Virus genome (UHGV): UHGV-2124687
Reading direction: 5' to 3' (one strand)
Length of the DNA stretch: 13,465 bases
Source: a virus
Shown here: in pieces, positions 7,624 to 11,096 of the stretch
How the letters are laid out: every line of letters starts with the position of its first letter
How positions within the stretch are numbered: position 1 is the first letter of the stretch
Program-made: the position numbers and the translations under genes
The notes under the pieces: generated by a model
What the model was told of the DNA's origin: nothing
Database searches by the model: none
Seen by the model: the letters and a program-made list of their open reading frames with translations, nothing else

Positions 7624-7728
7624 CTGAAGCAATGGTGAGGGATAATCTGCCGTAGTTGTGTCAGCAGAAACAAATGGCAGCTTAATAAAATATTGCTAAT
7701 TAAACCCGGTACGGCAGGTTTTCTTTTT
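7624..7728 (+). repeat. Copy A (decayed) of a ~100-nt terminator-ended non-coding element
   Basis: By my hand alignment, copy A matches copy B (10926-11029) at about 76 of 94 columns (gcaatRgtgaggg..aatct...ttgtg.cagcagaaa.aaa...taataaaa...tgctaatt.aacccg.tacggc.ggtttt). Its terminal hairpin has 2 mismatches in the 5-bp stem. Confidence 0.6.
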
Positions 7729-7752
7729 CACTTCATCAATCTCTGCTACGAT

Positions 7753-7781
7753 TCCCTATCTTTTACTGATGGGGATAGGGA
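7753..7781 (+). promoter_or_regulatory. RBS-sequestering hairpin upstream of the secreted mini-protein gene
   Basis: TCCCTATC (7753-7760) pairs perfectly with GATAGGGA (7774-7781) across a 13-nt loop. The 3' arm is the only purine-rich SD candidate and ends 1 nt before ATG 7783. Confidence 0.45.
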
Positions 7782-7782
7782 T

Positions 7783-7950
7783 ATGAAGAAAGTTCTTGTT
7801 GCTTTATTGTTGTCACTTTTCTCAGTGACAGCAACGGCAGCAAACAAGCCATGCTCAGGTAAGAAAGGCGGAATATCGCATTGCTCGGGTGAAAAGTTTG
7901 TTTGTAATGATGGCTCTATCAGCAAGTCTAAGAAGGTTTGTCAGAAATAG
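7783..7950 (+). CDS. Secreted cysteine-rich mini-protein (55 aa precursor, ~35 aa mature, 4 Cys)
   Basis: The signal peptide is MKKVLVALLLSLFSVTATA|ANKPC, with an AXA cleavage motif. The mature part is ANKPCSGKKGGISHCSGEKFVCNDGSISKSKKVCQK. A terminator (copy C) follows. The upstream part of the track ORF (from 7693) is non-coding leader. Confidence 0.65.
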   Translation: MKKVLVALLLSLFSVTATAANKPCSGKKGGISHCSGEKFVCNDGSISKSKKVCQK

Positions 7951-8010
7951 TTGCCGATAAATGGCACTCACCATCAAAAACAAACCCGCTATGGCTGGTT
8001 TTTTACTCTC
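7951..8010 (+). terminator. Copy C: 3'-half copy of the repeated element, serving as terminator of the mini-protein gene
   Basis: ttgccgataaat...caaaCCCGCtatgGCTGGtttttt-actc aligns with ctgccgcataat...tcaaCCCGCtacgGCGGGttttttt-g-ttttactc of copy B. The stem has 4 of 5 pairs and is followed by T6. Confidence 0.55.
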
Positions 8011-8070
8011 TATTGGATACGCTATTTTTTAGGCATTAAGAGCGATTAGTAGGACGCTTCTGGAGAAGGC

Positions 8071-8268
8071 GTGGATTCAACGAACGACGAAGAAAAGCGC
8101 ATAGAATTTGAAAAATTCATCATTGAAAAGTTTGGTGATGCAGTTGATCTCCGCAGGGCGAAAAATGGCGATAACGGATATTTATCATGGGAGGCGGCAG
8201 TAGCATGGACTGTCTGGCGGGAGCGCTCATCTCATCATGAAACAACGTCTACCTCTGGCGAGAACTGA
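8071..8268 (+). CDS. Hypothetical small protein (65 aa)
   Basis: GTG start with GGAG 5 nt upstream. The product is MDSTNDEEKRIEFEKFIIEKFGDAVDLRRAKNGDNGYLSWEAAVAWTVWRER.... The EFEKF...W.AA..W pattern recalls small phage accessory (Ea-type) proteins. I make no firm family call. Confidence 0.4.
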   Translation: MDSTNDEEKRIEFEKFIIEKFGDAVDLRRAKNGDNGYLSWEAAVAWTVWRERSSHHETTSTSGEN

Positions 8269-8447
8269 TTTAGTATGGTGCTGCCCGGAGCTTCCTGTTA
8301 ATCACTATGTACTCCCGTTTAGCCACGTCATTTTAGATTTGGTTTTGGTCCGCTATGAGCGAGGAGCAGAAGTTCGTAATTCCTTTAGACAATCCTCCAG
8401 GGAGGTTATGATAAAATATACAGCCATAAAGCCTATAGGGAGTGGAC

Positions 8448-8822
8448 ATGACATTGTTTGAGGAATGTAAGGAACTGCTCAAGACAGATTTTAATGTTGT
8501 GGAAGGGGATGATTTGAGCGCGATAATGGATATTTTTCATCAATATCCATGGCATAGCGGTAATCTCAGATGGTCGGAAATGGACTTCAGCGATTATGAA
8601 CTTAGTCATGATATGTTTAACGGGGGCGGTTTAGGCAATGAAACTGTATTTGTCATAGCGGATGATGCGAATGTACCCGTGTTCAGAACCCATCTACAAC
8701 TCATTGTCGATAATATCTACGATGTCATCGCCATATCACCTAACCTATTTATTTTTAATGATAAAATAATGATTAAACCTTTATTCCCTCATAATTATAT
8801 ACGGTTTGGTCTGCGAAAGTGA
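8448..8822 (+). CDS. Hypothetical acidic cytoplasmic protein (124 aa), very AT-rich gene
   Basis: ATG 8448 with GGGAG 5 nt upstream; the track start at GTG 8442 is less likely. The product is MTLFEECKELLKTDFNVVEGDDLSAIMDIFHQYPW...VFVIADDANVPVFRTHLQLIVDNIYDVIAISPNLFIFNDKIMI. It has no TM segment or signal peptide. It looks like an immunity protein, but I do not recognise the family. Confidence 0.55.
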   Translation: MTLFEECKELLKTDFNVVEGDDLSAIMDIFHQYPWHSGNLRWSEMDFSDYELSHDMFNGGGLGNETVFVIADDANVPVFRTHLQLIVDNIYDVIAISPNLFIFNDKIMIKPLFPHNYIRFGLRK

Positions 8823-9091
8823 TGAGCAGAAATACTGACCAGCTCCCCGTTGTTCAACTAAGACTTGTTATTGACAACTTCCGCTAATGGCACGGAGCGG
8901 ACAGGCCAAGCGACTTGTCAGGTCGGCTATGAGCGAAAAGCTGACATTAATTAAACCACAGGAAAGCTACCTGTCCAGAGAGAATGGTCAGGGGAGCAAA
9001 CGGTGAGCTCCATTAAGTTGTCGCTGCTTTTCTCGGGCTGTCAGCGCAAGCCGGAGATGGGCAGAAAAAAAGTCGTGTCTGGATCGCTAAA

Positions 9092-9587
9092 TCAAAGTGT
9101 CATCATCATTTCATGCCATGCCATTCCACCGTGGTCCGATTCTGACGGTTTGATGTACTGGTAACCAAAATGGGCGTACAGATCGACGTGGCGGTCTTTG
9201 CACATCAGGTGAATGGTTTTTTTGTTCATTGCTATCATGCGCGTCACAAATTCACGCATCAGTAATGATGAATATCCTTTGCCCTGGTAATCAGGGTGCA
9301 CCACGACAGACATAATCACTGCATTGGGTGCATCCGGATCGTGACCTACCAGTTCTTTGAACTCTTCGTCGGACATCACGACTTCCCACGCACAGCCCGC
9401 ATTAATGAAACCAATAACGTCACCGTTCAACTCCATGCATANNNNNNNNNNNNNNNNNNNNNNNNNNNNNNNNNNNNNNNNNNNNNNNNNNNNNNNNNNN
9501 NNNNNNNNNNNNNNNNNNTGTGATTTCAATATCATAGCAACGATCAACATCGGCATCAGTGGCCTGACGGAATACAGGGGTAGACAT
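9092..9587 (-). CDS. GNAT-family N-acetyltransferase (AANAT-like), interrupted by an N-run
   Basis: The C-terminal part contains the acetyl-CoA motif (VIMSVVVHPDYQGKGYSSLLMREFV) and ends HGGMAWHEMMMTL. The best N-terminus is ATG 9587 (MSTPVFRQATDADVDRCYDIEIT) with GAGG 7 nt upstream, not the track start at 9556. The two halves are out of frame by 1 across the 77-N run, so the run is not length-exact. Confidence 0.75.
9442..9518. other. Run of 77 N inside the GNAT gene
   Basis: Read directly from the sequence. 79 nt separate the last readable N-terminal codon from the first C-terminal codon. That is not a multiple of 3. Confidence 1.
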
Positions 9588-9723
9588 AGCCTTGCCTCTT
9601 CAGATTCATTTGTTTGGAATTATACTATCTTTTTTTTATCCTGCTTTCGCTGCATTTTATTCAACACTAAAATGTAGAATATTCATTTATTGTGTTTTAA
9701 ATAATATCTGAGAAAGAAGAATC

Positions 9724-10695
9724 ATGATGTCAACGTTGCGCAAGATCGATCTGAATTTATTGCTTATATTCGATTCTCTTTATCGGCATGGAAGCGTGAC
9801 GGAGGCCGCCAACGAACTGGCACTAAGCCCATCCGCACTAAGTCATGCGCTCAATCGCTTACGTACATCACTGGACGATCCCTTATTCGTGCGCACTGGT
9901 GGAAGCATGGTGCCCACGTCAAAAGCTGAAAGCATTGCAGCAAGTATTTCTGCCGCTCTAGGAAGTCTCTCGTCCTGCCTGCATGAGCCAGAACACTTTG
10001 AGCCGGAAAAAAGCCGGGAGAGTTTTACCTTTGCTGCTACGGACTACACTGCCGCCGCTATCCTGCCAAGCTTGATCGCGAGGGTTAACAGCCTTGCGCC
10101 GGGCATTACCATTAAGCTTATCTACTCACGCGATTTTAACGCCGACGAAGATTTGCTTTCAGGCAAAGTTGATTTCGCCCTTGGCTTTGAAGAAGAGCAG
10201 AAAGCCCCACGGCGCGGCATAGAGTCGATTACTTGCTTTACTGATGATTACGTGGTTGCAGTGCGACGCGGTCATCCTAATATCCAGGATTCCCTTACCC
10301 AAGAGCGTTATCTGAGCGCCGGACACGTAGTGGTGCGTCCATGGTTGGAAAGACGGGGGGGGATCGACCGTTATCTGGAAAGTCAGCAGGTACGTCGCCG
10401 GGTCGTTGTTGAATTGCCAAGCCTGATGATTGCCCCAATTATCGTTTCGAATACTGATCTGGTTATCACGCTTCCCAAGCGGGGGATCTCATCAGTTTTT
10501 GATATGAAAAATCTGGTGGTGTTTGCTCCCCCGTTCCCGACACCACAGTACATTTTGAAAGCCTATTACAGCCCGGCACTCGGTAACTCGCCAGGGCATA
10601 TATGGATGAGGGGGCAAATTTTGCAGGTTTGTGATCCGCTAAATCCGGCGATGCCAGTAATTGCTGTCGATACAAATTCTGGTACAGAAAGGTAA
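9724..10695 (+). CDS. LysR-family transcriptional regulator
   Basis: 323 aa. The N-terminal HTH is IDLNLLLIFDSLYRHGSVTEAANELALSPSALSHALNRLR, followed by a typical LysR substrate-binding region. It is divergent from the GNAT gene across a 136-bp AT-rich spacer. That spacer contains the dyads ATTC-N9-GAAT (9604-9620) and GAATATTC (9677-9684). Confidence 0.9.
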   Translation: MMSTLRKIDLNLLLIFDSLYRHGSVTEAANELALSPSALSHALNRLRTSLDDPLFVRTGGSMVPTSKAESIAASISAALGSLSSCLHEPEHFEPEKSRESFTFAATDYTAAAILPSLIARVNSLAPGITIKLIYSRDFNADEDLLSGKVDFALGFEEEQKAPRRGIESITCFTDDYVVAVRRGHPNIQDSLTQERYLSAGHVVVRPWLERRGGIDRYLESQQVRRRVVVELPSLMIAPIIVSNTDLVITLPKRGISSVFDMKNLVVFAPPFPTPQYILKAYYSPALGNSPGHIWMRGQILQVCDPLNPAMPVIAVDTNSGTER

Positions 10696-10925
10696 TCCGA
10701 TCATCTTTACTGCTCTCTAACTAGCTATCAGTTTAATGAATTCCTAGTAATTTAAAGCAGGGAGCGTTCATTATGTGACTCATGTCGAAGCTTAGTGTCA
10801 GGGAGAGAGGTAGTAAGACTTCGAAATTGTTGGACGTCTGCTTCTGGCACTATCCAGCCCTTTGCTGATTGAAAAAGACGAATGAAAGTTGGATACGCTT
10901 TACCTCATGGTCACACAGTTGCTCA

Positions 10926-11029
10926 CTGATGATGCAATAGTGAGGGCGAATCTCTCGGATTGTGCCAGCAGAAAGAAACTGCCGCATAATAAAACACTGC
11001 TAATTCAACCCGCTACGGCGGGTTTTTTT
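10926..11029 (+). ncRNA. Copy B (intact) of the repeated element: candidate small RNA or 3'-UTR module ending in a strong terminator
   Basis: This is the ~100-nt conserved block shared with copy A. It ends in CCCGC-tacg-GCGGG plus T7 (11009-11029). An internal AGCAG...CTGCT pairing is possible. No ORF is present. It lies 68 nt upstream of the LexA box. I identified no promoter, so it may be a 3' end rather than an independent gene. Confidence 0.35.
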
Positions 11030-11096
11030 GTTTTACTCCTGACAGGAAATTAACAATTTGTGCTCTTAAAACGTTGATCATTTCCGTGCATGAGTA

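What the first reader, a model, noticed from the sequence alone, without database searches (positions are those of the whole stretch)
7624..11036. Three related copies of a ~100-nt terminator-ended non-coding element; the intact one abuts the LexA/dinI operon and the decayed ones punctuate the cargo
Copy A (7624-7728) and copy B (10926-11029) align at about 76 of 94 columns by hand, with one gap. Copy C (7951-8010) matches the 3' ~60 nt. All three are in the same orientation, contain no ORF and end in the same hairpin family (CCCGC-tacg-GCGGG). The stem is perfect only in B. A has 2 of 5 positions broken and C has 1 of 5. Copies A and B bracket about 3.2 kb of non-phage-like cargo. This suggests the cargo entered by recombination at, or duplication of, this element. 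Alternatively, the element is a phage small RNA. Its layout (short, structured, terminator-ended, just upstream of an antirepressor-type operon) recalls C4/IsrK-type immunity RNAs. I cannot confirm any sequence relationship to those RNAs.
Basis: seen in the sequence. Interest (0 to 1): 0.65.

Follow-up and report, generated by a model that had tools for sequence, protein, structure and literature searches.

The report
Methylase-gene stubs sharing one terminator
The repeated ~100-base "element" is the leftover tail of a phage DNA-methylase gene plus that gene's transcription stop signal, retained at joints where this prophage has swapped accessory genes; this is an ordinary by-product of phage mosaic evolution, not a small regulatory RNA.

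Summary
Copies A (7623-7730) and B (10928-11036) are real homologues: 81 of 100 aligned bases match, with one gap. They are not a free-standing non-coding element. Each is the last ~20 codons of a phage C5-cytosine DNA methyltransferase gene, disrupted by a TAG in A and a 1-nt deletion in B. After the double stop codon come a short spacer and the gene's intrinsic terminator. Intact 715-aa methylase genes in related phages end in the same sequence and terminator, directly upstream of the same LexA box and dinI. RefSeq already annotates the equivalent E. coli sites as methylase pseudogenes. Copy C shares only the 22-nt hairpin and T-tract. Only B's hairpin is stable (-12.8 kcal/mol). Across 20 distinct dinI-adjacent junctions it is invariant apart from a UACG/UUCG loop variant and one T-tract base, even where the upstream sequence is unrelated. 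It therefore probably insulates the SOS-controlled dinI/antirepressor operon.

The sRNA idea finds no support: no Rfam hit, no conserved structure beyond the terminator, no target complementarity, and indel decay in the body.

The recombination-joint idea is partly right. The terminator is the exact joint for the ydcA moron. The CdiI and GNAT-LysR cargo, however, entered at different, already described inverted-repeat sites (P2 "Z-region" type). Overall the feature is ordinary.

The parts
7570..7593 (+). Separate terminator-like hairpin (AGGCCTCC-TTGG-AGGCCT + TTTT). It closes the upstream module 'X' and is not homologous to A, B or C.
   Evidence: Read. The unmasked sister sequence shows module X (..CCATACAAGCGATAT..CCCATATCGGCAATAC). 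In E. coli ES8, L014 and L123 the same module X is followed by the 20-mer terminator instead.
7623..7688 (+). Copy A, coding remnant. These are the last ~20 codons of a C5-cytosine DNA methyltransferase (EAMVRDNLP*LCQQKQMAA**), with an in-frame TAG at 7653-7655 and the double stop TAA TAA at 7683-7688.
   Evidence: An nhmmer profile built from intact methylase 3' ends hits 7623-7730 with E 3.8e-22. The translation is. tblastn gives 58% identity over 19 aa.
7689..7730 (+). Copy A, 3' UTR spacer plus decayed terminator (AACCCGG-TACG-GCAGGTT, then T-tract).
   Evidence: The hairpin folds at -3.6 kcal/mol, z 0.08. It is not called by the terminator scan.
7725..7982 (+). ydcA moron: leader 7725-7782, 55-aa signal-peptide protein 7783-7950 (YdcA family), and its 3' UTR.
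   Evidence: About 90% identical to ydcA units in E. coli ES8 and IMG/VR contigs, where the unit is likewise flanked by the terminator on both sides. The YdcA Pfam tag comes from the gene table. The leader 7741-7787 recurs in front of other small genes.
7983..8010 (+). Copy C: terminator hairpin with one broken pair (AACCCGC-TATG-GCTGGTT) plus T-tract. It is the joint between the ydcA unit and the orf65 module.
   Evidence: It matches B at 20/22, and the upstream part matches only at chance level. The hairpin folds at -5.7 kcal/mol. In L105 and L036 an intact or long methylase gene and its terminator are joined directly to the same orf65 flank, which is the empty site.
8005..8362 (+). orf65 module (65-aa ORF 8071-8268). 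It ends in a type-2 cassette site, GGTCCGCT-AT-GAGCGA, at 8347-8362.
   Evidence: Shared at about 90% with E. coli PSJ-22, L036 and L105. L144, L145 and PSJ-22 diverge from the window right after GAGCGA.
8363..8893 (+). CdiI cassette: own promoter-like site 8384-8412, CdiI immunity gene 8448-8822, ending in a type-1 site (CTTCCGCT-AA-TGGCAC, 8878-8893).
   Evidence: Pfam CdiI_ImmP E 5e-35. 98.5-99.5% identical copies occur in an E. coli plasmid and in L136.
8894..10850 (+). GNAT-LysR cassette (1957 bp): GNAT acetyltransferase 9092-9587 on the minus strand (partly N-masked), LysR regulator 9724-10695, and terminal type-1 site CGTCTGCT-TC-TGGCAC at 10835-10850.
   Evidence: Absent from sister prophages L139 and L142, which carry the exact hybrid site CTTCCGCTAATGGCAC|TATCCAGCC. 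A 97-100% identical cassette lies in arrays beyond the tail-fibre genes of another prophage (L130, L135, L136) with no copy of element A/B nearby.
10851..10927 (+). B block, 5' part: phage-side flank of the cassette insertion point. It may hold further decayed methylase sequence.
   Evidence: Shared with E. coli PSJ-22 and Citrobacter pasteurii L137, where it also starts right after a TGGCAC-type site. The nhmmer envelope for B starts at 10908.
10928..10992 (+). Copy B, coding remnant of the same methylase C-terminus (DDAIVRANLS / LCQQKETAA**), with a 1-nt deletion near 10958 and the double stop TAA TAA at 10987-10992.
   Evidence: nhmmer E 1.6e-24. Translation. It aligns with the intact methylase 3' end of Klebsiella phage 5 LV-2017 and with RefSeq-annotated pseudogenes.
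10993..11036 (+). Copy B, spacer plus intact intrinsic terminator (stem 11007-11013 / 11018-11024, loop UACG, T-tract to about 11034).
   Evidence: -12.8 kcal/mol, z -3.9. It is the only one of the three copies that the terminator scan calls. In 20 distinct dinI-adjacent junctions it is invariant apart from a UACG/UUCG loop variant and one T-tract base.
11037..11371 (+). Downstream unit that the terminator abuts: a conserved block (CTGACAGGAAATTAACAATTTGTGCTCTTAAAACG), TTGATC/TATACT promoter-like hexamers, the LexA box 11097-11116 and dinI 11135-11371. A 60-aa Rem-family ORF follows at 11493-11675.
   Evidence: Sequence. DinI Pfam hit. Gene table. Alignment of junctions. Lemire et al. 2011 (PMC3121763) describe the same layout in the Gifsy prophages.

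Best explanation
A and B are pseudogene stubs. Each is the last ~20 codons of a phage C5-cytosine DNA methyltransferase gene, followed by that gene's double stop codon, a 14-17 nt 3' UTR spacer and its Rho-independent terminator. C is a third copy of the terminator alone.

Shown in related phages: the ancestral arrangement is replication genes - intact methylase - terminator - LexA box - dinI - small antirepressor-type gene.

Inferred: the dinI-proximal terminator (B) is kept perfect by selection. It stops transcripts coming from upstream (early-right or cargo genes such as LysR) before they run into the SOS-controlled dinI/antirepressor operon, so that operon stays under LexA control alone. 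Deletions, replacements and insertions upstream therefore stop short of the terminator. That leaves methylase stubs of varying length.

Shown by filled and empty sites: the 20-26 nt terminator is also the exact joint at which small self-contained units are exchanged, notably the 280-bp ydcA moron. Inferred: the mechanism is short-homology recombination or single-crossover insertion of a circle carrying one terminator copy, which duplicates the terminator.

The upstream copies A and C are no longer needed as insulators and have decayed.

The remaining cargo (the CdiI and GNAT-LysR cassettes) entered independently, at inverted-repeat sites GTCCGCT-N2-(TGGCAC or GAGCGA)-N2-AGCGGAC that have nothing to do with the element.
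For: Identity of the element:
- RefSeq annotates the homologous E. coli sites as 'DNA (cytosine) methyltransferase, incomplete, missing N-terminus'. Their translations end ..GNAVPPPFAEALVRANLPELCQQKQIAA*.
- The 715-aa methylase of Klebsiella phage 5 LV-2017 hits PF00145 at E 1.1e-18. It ends in the same codons and hairpin, followed by a LexA box and dinI. Other intact genes with the same 3' end occur in L105 and L113.
- An nhmmer profile of intact 3' ends hits the window only at B (E 1.6e-24), A (3.8e-22) and weakly at C (1.7e-4).
- A has an in-frame TAG. B has a 1-nt deletion.
- Stub lengths differ between lineages. They start at profile positions 3, 142, 204, 209, 214, 218, 234, 241, 244 and 267, which points to several separate truncations.

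Selection on the terminator only:
- 20 distinct dinI-adjacent junctions keep AACCCGCT(A/T)CGGCGGGTTT; the only departures are the UACG/UUCG loop variant and one T-tract base in SEN34. This holds even where the upstream sequence is unrelated (L040, L081, L086, L100) and the downstream sequence is only 65-70% identical.
- The stub decays by different indels, for example a 13-nt deletion in C. pasteurii L137.
- Hairpin energies are B -12.8, A -3.6 and C -5.7 kcal/mol.
- Lemire et al. [quoted passage not shown]

Terminator as a joint:
- Three left modules and five right modules are joined at the 20-mer in nine combinations.
- Empty sites are L123 (X-term-Y) and L105/L036 (methylase-term-orf65). 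Filled sites are L014/L072 and the window.

Related phages with one copy and no cargo: AR_0119 (P - stub - dinI) and L113/L007 (intact methylase - dinI).
Against: - There is no transcript or termination data. The insulator role is an inference from position and conservation.
- The exact 20-mer is a generic 'optimal' terminator found in more than 120 unrelated viral contigs. Some terminator copies, C in particular, could be convergent rather than inherited.
- Many independent lineages keep at least 20 codons of stub rather than deleting up to the hairpin. This could hint at a function for the upstream ~60 nt, such as a 3'-UTR-derived RNA or upstream context needed for termination. I cannot exclude that.
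- A and B both begin to align at the same profile position (241), and A shares B-type substitutions.
- The promoter proposed for the ydcA unit is weak (8 of 12 consensus positions by eye; not called).
Confidence: 0.82

Rival explanations
1. The element encodes a trans-acting small RNA. It would be either a C4/IsrK-type immunity RNA with its own promoter, or an Hfq-dependent RNA processed from the 3' UTR of the upstream mRNA, and it would regulate the dinI/antirepressor operon or a host target.
For: It ends in a strong terminator with a U-tract preceded by an A/U-rich stretch, a layout typical of Hfq-binding RNAs. Weak sub-threshold Rfam alignments exist: isrK 20.7 bits at E 0.21 and TarB 25.7 bits at E 0.08. 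Stubs of at least 20 codons are retained in many lineages. One promoter-like match lies inside B (10962-10990, 9 of 12).
Against: Both Rfam scores are far below the gathering cut-offs (50 and 80). The alignments rest on the terminator, and no C4 hit appears. The promoter-like count equals the shuffle expectation (8 found versus 7.6 expected), and a start at that site would leave a transcript of only ~35 nt. The consensus structure of 13 homologues is the terminator only, with no covariation. The whole element is not more stable than shuffles. There is no excess complementarity to the dinI, orf60 or ydcA leaders. The body carries a stop codon, a frameshift and a 13-nt deletion in different copies, and is wholly replaced in four lineages that keep the terminator.
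Confidence: 0.05
2. The whole 3.2-kb cargo entered in a single event by recombination at, or duplication of, the ~105-nt element. A and B would then be the two ends of one insertion.
For: A and B are direct repeats flanking the cargo. A shares B-type derived substitutions (GCAAT, AATCT, TTGTG). Analogous two-copy brackets exist in mEp237, L010, L048 and L120.
Against: A and B differ by 19%, whereas cargo modules are 90-100% identical to copies elsewhere. The cargo is a chain of at least four modules with their own junctions at 7724/7983 (terminator), 8362 (GAGCGA site), 8893 and 10850 (TGGCAC sites). Sister prophages with 99.7% identical backbones lack GNAT-LysR, or carry other cassettes, while keeping A, C and B. 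The right cargo boundary lies 77 nt upstream of B, not in it.
Confidence: 0.1
3. The three hairpins are independent, convergently evolved terminators. On this view only A and B are related, through the methylase stub, and C merely resembles them.
For: The exact 20-mer occurs in more than 120 IMG/VR contigs in unrelated contexts. C has no similarity to A or B outside the hairpin.
Against: In L105 and L036 the methylase terminator is joined to exactly the flank that follows C in the window. ydcA units elsewhere carry the perfect 20-mer at the position of C. C is therefore positionally equivalent to the methylase terminator.
Confidence: 0.2

Closest known systems
Putative Rho-independent terminators preceding the LexA box of the dinI-antirepressor operons of Gifsy-1/-2/-3 (Lemire, Figueroa-Bossi & Bossi 2011, PMC3121763); more loosely, the tR2-tR4 terminators of the lambda nin region (own knowledge)
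   Same: The position is the same: downstream of the replication genes and immediately upstream of a LexA box, a dinI homologue and a small antirepressor-type gene. Copy B is a textbook hairpin plus T-tract.
   Different: The paper does not describe the methylase stub or the reuse of the hairpin as a module joint. The blastn search of the phage collection returned only mEp237, SEN34 and Klebsiella Kp488x phages, with no Gifsy record among the hits. No termination assay exists for this one.
RefSeq/PGAP-annotated 'DNA (cytosine) methyltransferase, incomplete, missing N-terminus' pseudogenes in E. coli lambdoid prophages (e.g. AR_0119, ES8)
   Same: Orthologous sequence, 82-88% identical to A and B, in the same position upstream of dinI.
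   Different: The window copies are shorter and carry a stop codon or a frameshift, so they fall below what an annotation pipeline would call. Two stubs occur in one prophage.
[quoted passage not shown] 2010, PMC2839356; Comeau et al. 2014, PMC4122927)
   Same: A short conserved terminator stem-loop, here followed by a portable leader, is repeated between small accessory genes in a hypervariable region. Insertion, deletion and replacement junctions fall on it.
   Different: The phage family is different (lambdoid temperate phages). No strong sigma-70 promoter is recognisable. No mini-circles have been shown. There are only three copies per genome.
Inverted repeats flanking foreign DNA in the 'Z-region' of P2-like coliphages (GenBank AJ512676-AJ512685; Nilsson, Karlsson & Haggard-Ljungquist 2004, Mol Biol Evol 21:1-13; paper not readable here)
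   Same: This applies to the cargo, not to the element. The sites at 8347-8370, 8878-8902, 8921-8944 and 10835-10859 have the motif GTCCGCT-N2-TGGCAC/GAGCGA-N2-AGCGGAC. That motif lies inside the annotated 'left inverted repeat' and the unlabelled 3' repeat_region of P2-EC30.
   Different: Here the sites lie in the nin region of a lambdoid prophage and form a two-cassette array with precise filled and empty sites. I could not find what is known about the recombinase.
   Same: Only the general layout is shared: short, terminator-ended and near an antirepressor-type operon.
   Different: No sequence or structure match at family thresholds, no conserved structure and no target complementarity.

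Membership tests
C5-cytosine DNA methyltransferase gene remnant (pseudogene) | Significant homology to the 3' end of intact family members | tested here: met
   nhmmer profile of intact 3' ends: B E 1.6e-24, A E 3.8e-22. The intact homologue hits PF00145 at E 1.1e-18.
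C5-cytosine DNA methyltransferase gene remnant (pseudogene) | Reading frame disrupted and the body of the gene absent | tested here: met
   TAG at 7653-7655 in A and a 1-nt deletion near 10958 in B. There are no further methylase matches upstream.
C5-cytosine DNA methyltransferase gene remnant (pseudogene) | Same genomic position as intact genes in relatives | tested here: met
   Intact methylase - terminator - LexA box - dinI in Klebsiella phage 5 LV-2017 and in L113.
Rho-independent (intrinsic) terminator | G+C-rich stem, short loop, then a run of T | tested here: met
   B: 7-bp stem, UACG loop, T7 tail, -12.8 kcal/mol, z -3.9, and called by the scan. A (-3.6) and C (-5.7) fail the scan and are not better than shuffles.
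Rho-independent (intrinsic) terminator | Actual transcript 3' ends or termination in vivo or in vitro | not testable with these tools
   No transcriptome data are available here.
IsrK / C4-type phage immunity RNA | Match to the Rfam covariance model at gathering score | tested here: not met
   isrK scores 20.7 bits against 50. No C4 hit appears even at E up to 10.
IsrK / C4-type phage immunity RNA | Conserved secondary structure supported by covariation | tested here: not met
   RNAalifold on 13 homologues gives only the terminator, with 0 compensatory pairs.
IsrK / C4-type phage immunity RNA | Complementarity to the leader of the regulated (antirepressor) operon | tested here: not met
   Duplex energies with the dinI, orf60 and ydcA leaders lie within the shuffle distributions (z -0.77 to +0.82).
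IsrK / C4-type phage immunity RNA | Discrete transcript with its own promoter or processing site | not testable with these tools
   Only a chance-level promoter-like match at 10962-10990.
Moron (independent transcription unit added between phage genes) | Present or absent between otherwise identical neighbours | tested here: met
   For the ydcA unit, L123 is empty and L014/L072 are filled; L105/L036 are empty and the window is filled.
Moron (independent transcription unit added between phage genes) | Own promoter and own terminator | tested here: inconclusive
   Terminator copies lie on both sides. The leader is shared with other small genes. No promoter passes the scan.
PeSL-like mobile regulatory cassette | Indel and replacement junctions coincide with a repeated terminator(+promoter) motif | tested here: met
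   Nine left/right module combinations are joined exactly at the 20-mer.
PeSL-like mobile regulatory cassette | Strong early promoter in the motif; circular excision products | tested here: inconclusive
   No strong promoter was found. Circular products cannot be tested here.
P2 Z-region-type inverted-repeat cassette sites (applies to the cargo) | Motif GTCCGCT-N2-hexamer-N2-AGCGGAC at the ends of foreign DNA | tested here: met
   Window sites are (2 matches against 0.17 expected). The same motif lies inside the annotated repeats of AJ512676.
P2 Z-region-type inverted-repeat cassette sites (applies to the cargo) | Precise filled and empty sites, and the same cassette in different neighbourhoods | tested here: met
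   L139 and L142 carry the hybrid site. The GNAT-LysR cassette is 97-100% identical in L130, L135 and L136.

The most novel reading that the evidence does not exclude
In this group of lambdoid (Gifsy-like) prophages, the 20-26 nt methylase terminator together with the adjoining portable leader behaves like the PeSL cassettes of T4-type phages. It would be a short regulatory module that is itself the substrate for shuffling small accessory genes (the 280-bp ydcA unit and others) in and out of the nin region, possibly through circular intermediates. The same 3-kb stretch also hosts a second, mechanistically distinct cassette system (the GTCCGCT...AGCGGAC sites) whose recombinase is not identified here. 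The clean filled and empty pairs found here would make both mechanisms directly testable.
Probability: 0.35. Interest if true: 0.45.

Novelty: new member of a known kind. Interest (0 to 1): 0.2.

Why it matters
The main value is as a correction. A tidy, repeated, terminator-ended 'non-coding element' next to a regulatory operon looks like a small RNA, but it is a gene stub plus terminator, and scans for phage sRNAs should expect this class of false positive. It also gives a concrete, well-resolved example of how accessory genes accumulate upstream of the SOS-controlled induction operon of Gifsy-type prophages. The operon's upstream terminator is held fixed while everything before it is exchanged. 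Two different kinds of joint (terminator homology and inverted-repeat cassette sites) operate within 3 kb. If the insulator inference is right, the hairpin is part of what keeps prophage induction under LexA control alone.

Tried and rejected
- Rfam at gathering score on the whole window, and at E up to 10 on 7400-11200, gave only sub-threshold chance-level hits.
- Promoter scan: counts equal the shuffle expectation, so there is no credible promoter for an sRNA.
- Duplex search against the dinI, 60-aa-ORF and ydcA leaders was no better than shuffles; the duplexfold structures were long and loopy and are not meaningful.
- Testing copy C for homology upstream of its hairpin gave chance-level similarity.
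- A genome-contig scan with GCTAATTMAACCCGSTACGGCRGGTTTT returned only two Citrobacter pasteurii loci.
- I looked for the chromosomal E. coli ydcA as the donor of the ydcA unit and found no DNA-level match.
- A literature search by motif (GTCCGCT / AGCGGAC) found nothing relevant.
- Nilsson et al. 2004 and Odegrip et al. 2006 are not held, so the description of the Z-region repeats rests on GenBank feature tables and the paper's title.
- The local Pfam copy lacks the Rem and YdcA families that the precomputed gene tables list.
- I considered that the TGGCAC core might be a sigma-54 -24 element. I dropped the idea by reading the sequence: there is no TTGC at the -12 spacing.
- I noticed a resemblance between the type-1 half-site and the 5' end of tRNA-Pro. 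That tRNA sequence is recalled from memory and the comparison was not made with a tool, so I left it as an untested remark.
- I did not attempt to identify a recombinase for the cassette sites.

Full report
**Context.** The window is the early-right arm of a lambdoid, Gifsy-like prophage. In order it holds:
- a CI-type HTH repressor (3054-3461, minus strand), a Cro-like gene and a YdaT gene;
- an O-like initiator with internal iterons, and a lambda-P homologue;
- several small ORFs, then the region in question;
- a LexA box, dinI, a 60-aa Rem-family ORF, a RecA-dependent nuclease and RusA.

Sister prophages 99.7-100% identical over the backbone exist in several sequenced genomes. The host is probably a Citrobacter. 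The nearest phage hit is Citrobacter phage Chris1, and the B-type stub is shared with C. pasteurii CIP 55.13.

**The observation.** A (7624-7728) and B (10926-11029) are truly related. They share 81 of 100 aligned bases with one gap, and the local score is 59 against a maximum of 13 for 2000 random windows. The hairpin description is accurate. B folds at -12.8 kcal/mol (z -3.9), A at -3.6 (z 0.1) and C at -5.7 (z -1.2). Only B passes a terminator scan. Copy C, however, resembles A and B only over the 22-nt hairpin and T-tract (20/22 to B). The sequence before it is at chance level.

**What the element is.** Searching E. coli genomes with B found homologues in 51 of 5426 genomes, always in prophages just upstream of dinI. 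In several of them RefSeq annotates the 5' part of the match as a 'DNA (cytosine) methyltransferase' pseudogene lacking its N-terminus. These translate to ..CGNAVPPPFAEALVRANLPELCQQKQIAA*.

Klebsiella phage 5 LV-2017 has an intact 715-aa gene of this family (PF00145, E 1.1e-18). It ends in the same codons, is followed at once by the hairpin AACCCGCTTCGGCGGGTTTT, and then by a LexA box and dinI. Further intact genes with the same 3' end occur in IMG/VR contigs L105 and L113.

A nucleotide profile built from seven intact or long 3' ends, plus 70 nt downstream, hits the window at exactly three places: B (E 1.6e-24), A (3.8e-22) and weakly C (1.7e-4). In the methylase frame:
- A reads EAMVRDNLP*LCQQKQMAA**, with GAG changed to TAG at 7653-7655.
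- B reads DDAIVRANLS, then a 1-nt deletion, then LCQQKETAA**.

So the 5' two-thirds of the 'element' is a dead coding remnant, and the 3' third is the gene's 3' UTR and terminator.

**What is conserved and what is not.** I collected 21 distinct sequences in which a CCCGC hairpin lies within 140 nt upstream of a CTGT-N8-ACAG motif. Twenty of them are dinI-adjacent junctions; one (L056) is an unrelated locus. In the 20, the hairpin keeps the same sequence; the only departures are the loop (UACG or UUCG, both UNCG-type tetraloops) and one T-tract base in SEN34. This holds even where the upstream sequence is completely unrelated (L040, L081, L086, L100) and the downstream promoter region has diverged to 65-70% identity.

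The stub is a different story. It begins at many different points of the gene in different lineages: profile positions 3, 142, 204, 209, 214, 218, 234, 241, 244 and 267. It also decays by lineage-specific lesions, for example a 13-nt deletion in C. pasteurii L137. RNAalifold on 13 homologues predicts only the terminator, with no compensatory changes and nothing upstream.

Lemire et al. [quoted passage not shown]

My inference is that the dinI-proximal hairpin is maintained because it shields the SOS-controlled induction operon from upstream transcription. In the window the co-oriented LysR gene ends 330 nt before it, with no other terminator called in between. On this view the stub survives only as the buffer left by upstream rearrangements. 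This step is inferred, not shown.

**The sRNA reading.** Every test came back negative:
- Rfam finds nothing at gathering score. At E up to 10 it gives isrK at 20.7 bits (cut-off 50) and TarB at 25.7 bits (cut-off 80), both resting on the terminator, and no C4.
- The full-length elements are not unusually stable (z -1.9 and -1.1).
- Promoter-like matches are at chance frequency.
- Duplex energies with the leaders of dinI, the 60-aa ORF and ydcA are indistinguishable from shuffles.

I rate this reading at about 5%. The residual covers a possible 3'-UTR-derived RNA, which sequence analysis alone cannot exclude.

**The recombination-joint reading: the terminator.** Listing every terminator copy in related loci shows that the 20-mer AACCCGCTACGGCGGGTTTT is the exact junction between two sets of modules.
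- Three left modules: the methylase 3' end; a module 'X' ending ..CGACAATAT; and the ydcA 3' end.
- Five right modules: the dinI promoter region; the ydcA unit; a module 'Y'; the orf65 module; and a longer methylase stub.

Nine combinations are seen. Filled and empty pairs exist:
- X-term-Y (L123) versus X-term-ydcA-term-Y (L014, L072).
- methylase-term-orf65 (L105, L036) versus the window's stubA-termA-ydcA-termC-orf65.

The repeat period is 280 bp in both cases. This is what a single crossover of a 280-bp circle carrying one terminator would produce. It parallels the PeSL model for T4-type phages (Arbiol et al. 2010). The leader that follows the terminator (7741-7787) recurs in front of unrelated small genes.

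One caveat applies. The same 20-mer occurs in more than 120 viral contigs in unrelated contexts. It is a generic optimal terminator, and homology of isolated copies cannot be assumed.

Two-copy brackets like A...B also occur in mEp237 and its relatives (methylase 3' end - one small moron - 20-codon stub - dinI) and in L120. A carries the substitutions typical of B-type stubs. An old duplication, or unequal exchange between two phages with B-type stubs, is therefore plausible for the step that separated A from B.

**The recombination-joint reading: the rest of the cargo.** The 3.2 kb is not one insertion.
- The orf65 module (8005-8362) is shared with E. coli PSJ-22, L036 and L105.
- The CdiI cassette (8363-8893) is 98.5-99.5% identical to copies in an E. 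coli plasmid and in L136.
- The GNAT-LysR cassette (8894-10850) is 97-100% identical to copies lying beyond the tail-fibre genes of a different prophage (L130, L135, L136). No copy of the stub or terminator is present there.

Sister prophages L139 and L142 have the same backbone, A, C, the CdiI cassette and B, but lack exactly these 1957 bp.

The junctions are a different kind of site. Each has 7-bp inverted arms GTCCGCT / AGCGGAC around NN-hexamer-NN, with hexamer TGGCAC or GAGCGA. In the window these sites lie at 8347-8370, 8878-8902, 8921-8944 and 10835-10859. The pattern gives 2 matches against 0.17 expected. The empty site in L139 is the precise hybrid CTTCCGCTAATGGCAC|TATCCAGCC. At least ten left arms and eight right arms combine exactly at the hexamer in the loci I hold.

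The full palindromic site occurs in more than 120 IMG/VR contigs. In P2-like phages it abuts the end of the tail-fibre assembly gene G. It also lies inside the 'left inverted repeat' annotated in the 'proviral Z-region' GenBank records of P2-EC30, P2-EC48 and others. Those records belong to Nilsson et al. [quoted passage not shown] I could not read that paper. This cassette system is therefore already described in kind. Its presence as a small array in a lambdoid nin region is a detail I could not check against the literature.

The test was whether related prophages carry the same cargo without flanking copies. The GNAT-LysR cassette does occur elsewhere without flanking copies. Within this prophage family, A and B stay put while the cargo between them varies. 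The element is therefore a landmark of a hypervariable slot and, through its terminator, one of the joints. It is not the vehicle of the cargo.

**Verdict.** The repeat is real and the hairpin description is correct, but the feature is ordinary. It consists of two decayed 3' stubs of a methylase gene with the gene's terminator, plus one extra terminator copy, at the joints of a moron and cassette accumulation zone upstream of the SOS-controlled dinI operon. Confidence in the identity is high. The insulator function and the short-homology or circle mechanism are inferences.

Noticed in passing
window 8347-8370, 8878-8902, 8921-8944, 10835-10859: A second, unrelated kind of joint. It has 7-bp inverted arms GTCCGCT/AGCGGAC around NN-TGGCAC-NN or NN-GAGCGA-NN, and it bounds the CdiI and GNAT-LysR cassettes. 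Sister prophages carry the precise empty site. The same motif lies in the annotated inverted repeats of the P2-like 'Z-region' records (AJ512676 and others) and in more than 120 IMG/VR contigs. The recombinase was not identified here.
   Followed up: partly
window 7741-7787; L065 5492-5538; L101 2331-2378; L050: The leader between terminator A and the ydcA start codon (..CTCTGCTACGATT..TTTACTGATGGGGATAGGGATATG) recurs at about 91% identity in front of unrelated small genes. In three E. coli genomes it precedes BamE/META-domain genes. In some cases it again follows a terminator. It looks like a portable expression leader.
   Followed up: partly
window 11037-11075: The block CTGACAGGAAATTAACAATTTGTGCTCTTAAAACG lies between terminator B and the -35-like TTGATC of the dinI promoter. 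It is conserved across most dinI junctions, including some with diverged flanks. Its function is unknown; it could be an operator or an UP-like element.
   Followed up: no
window 7500-7596 (N-masked at 7524-7541; read in sister locus L131): Upstream of copy A lies the same module 'X' (..CCATACAAGCGATAT..CCCATATCGGCAATAC) that in E. coli ES8, L014, L086 and L123 is followed by the 20-mer terminator. Here it is followed by a different hairpin (AGGCCTCCTTGGAGGCCTTTT). This looks like a terminator swap at a fixed module end.
   Followed up: partly
IMG/VR loci L011-L129: The exact 20-mer AACCCGCTACGGCGGGTTTT occurs in more than 120 viral contigs in many unrelated contexts. It is often followed by TTATGCC(T/C)GGAG..ATG ahead of other genes. 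This is far more than chance would give for a 20-mer and suggests convergence on, or spread of, one 'optimal' UNCG-loop terminator.
   Followed up: partly
L143 about 8000-9492; L132/L141 4949-7504: In sister prophages, insertion sequences sit at or next to the cassette sites. An IS110-family element is inserted right after the GAGCGA core (window position 8938). A pair of DDE_Tnp_1 elements lies between the CdiI and GNAT cassettes.
   Followed up: no
L136 11114-11200; L145 9701-10311: In one array the terminal TGGCAC site abuts a degenerate proL-like tRNA fragment, and the right half-site (GGCACGGAGCGGAC) resembles the 5' end of tRNA-Pro at 11 of 14 bases. The tRNA-Pro sequence is recalled from memory and ARAGORN was not run. 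In another array the site lies 28 nt from the stop codon of a 189-aa Phage_integrase ORF. Either could be a lead to the recombinase or pure coincidence.
   Followed up: no
window 8237-8461: A 74-aa ORF runs across the GAGCGA cassette joint into the CdiI start. It is assembled from two modules and has no Pfam hit. It is probably not a gene and not an orphan CdiA-CT toxin.
   Followed up: no
window 9442-9518: The N-masked run interrupts the GNAT acetyltransferase gene, which is a complete 163-aa ORF (window 9092-9587, minus strand) in unmasked sister loci.
   Followed up: yes
window 4875-5013: Iteron-like direct and inverted repeats (TTTTGACCCGTCAAA.. units at 48-51 bp spacing) lie inside the O-like replication gene. 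This is presumably the phage origin.
   Followed up: no
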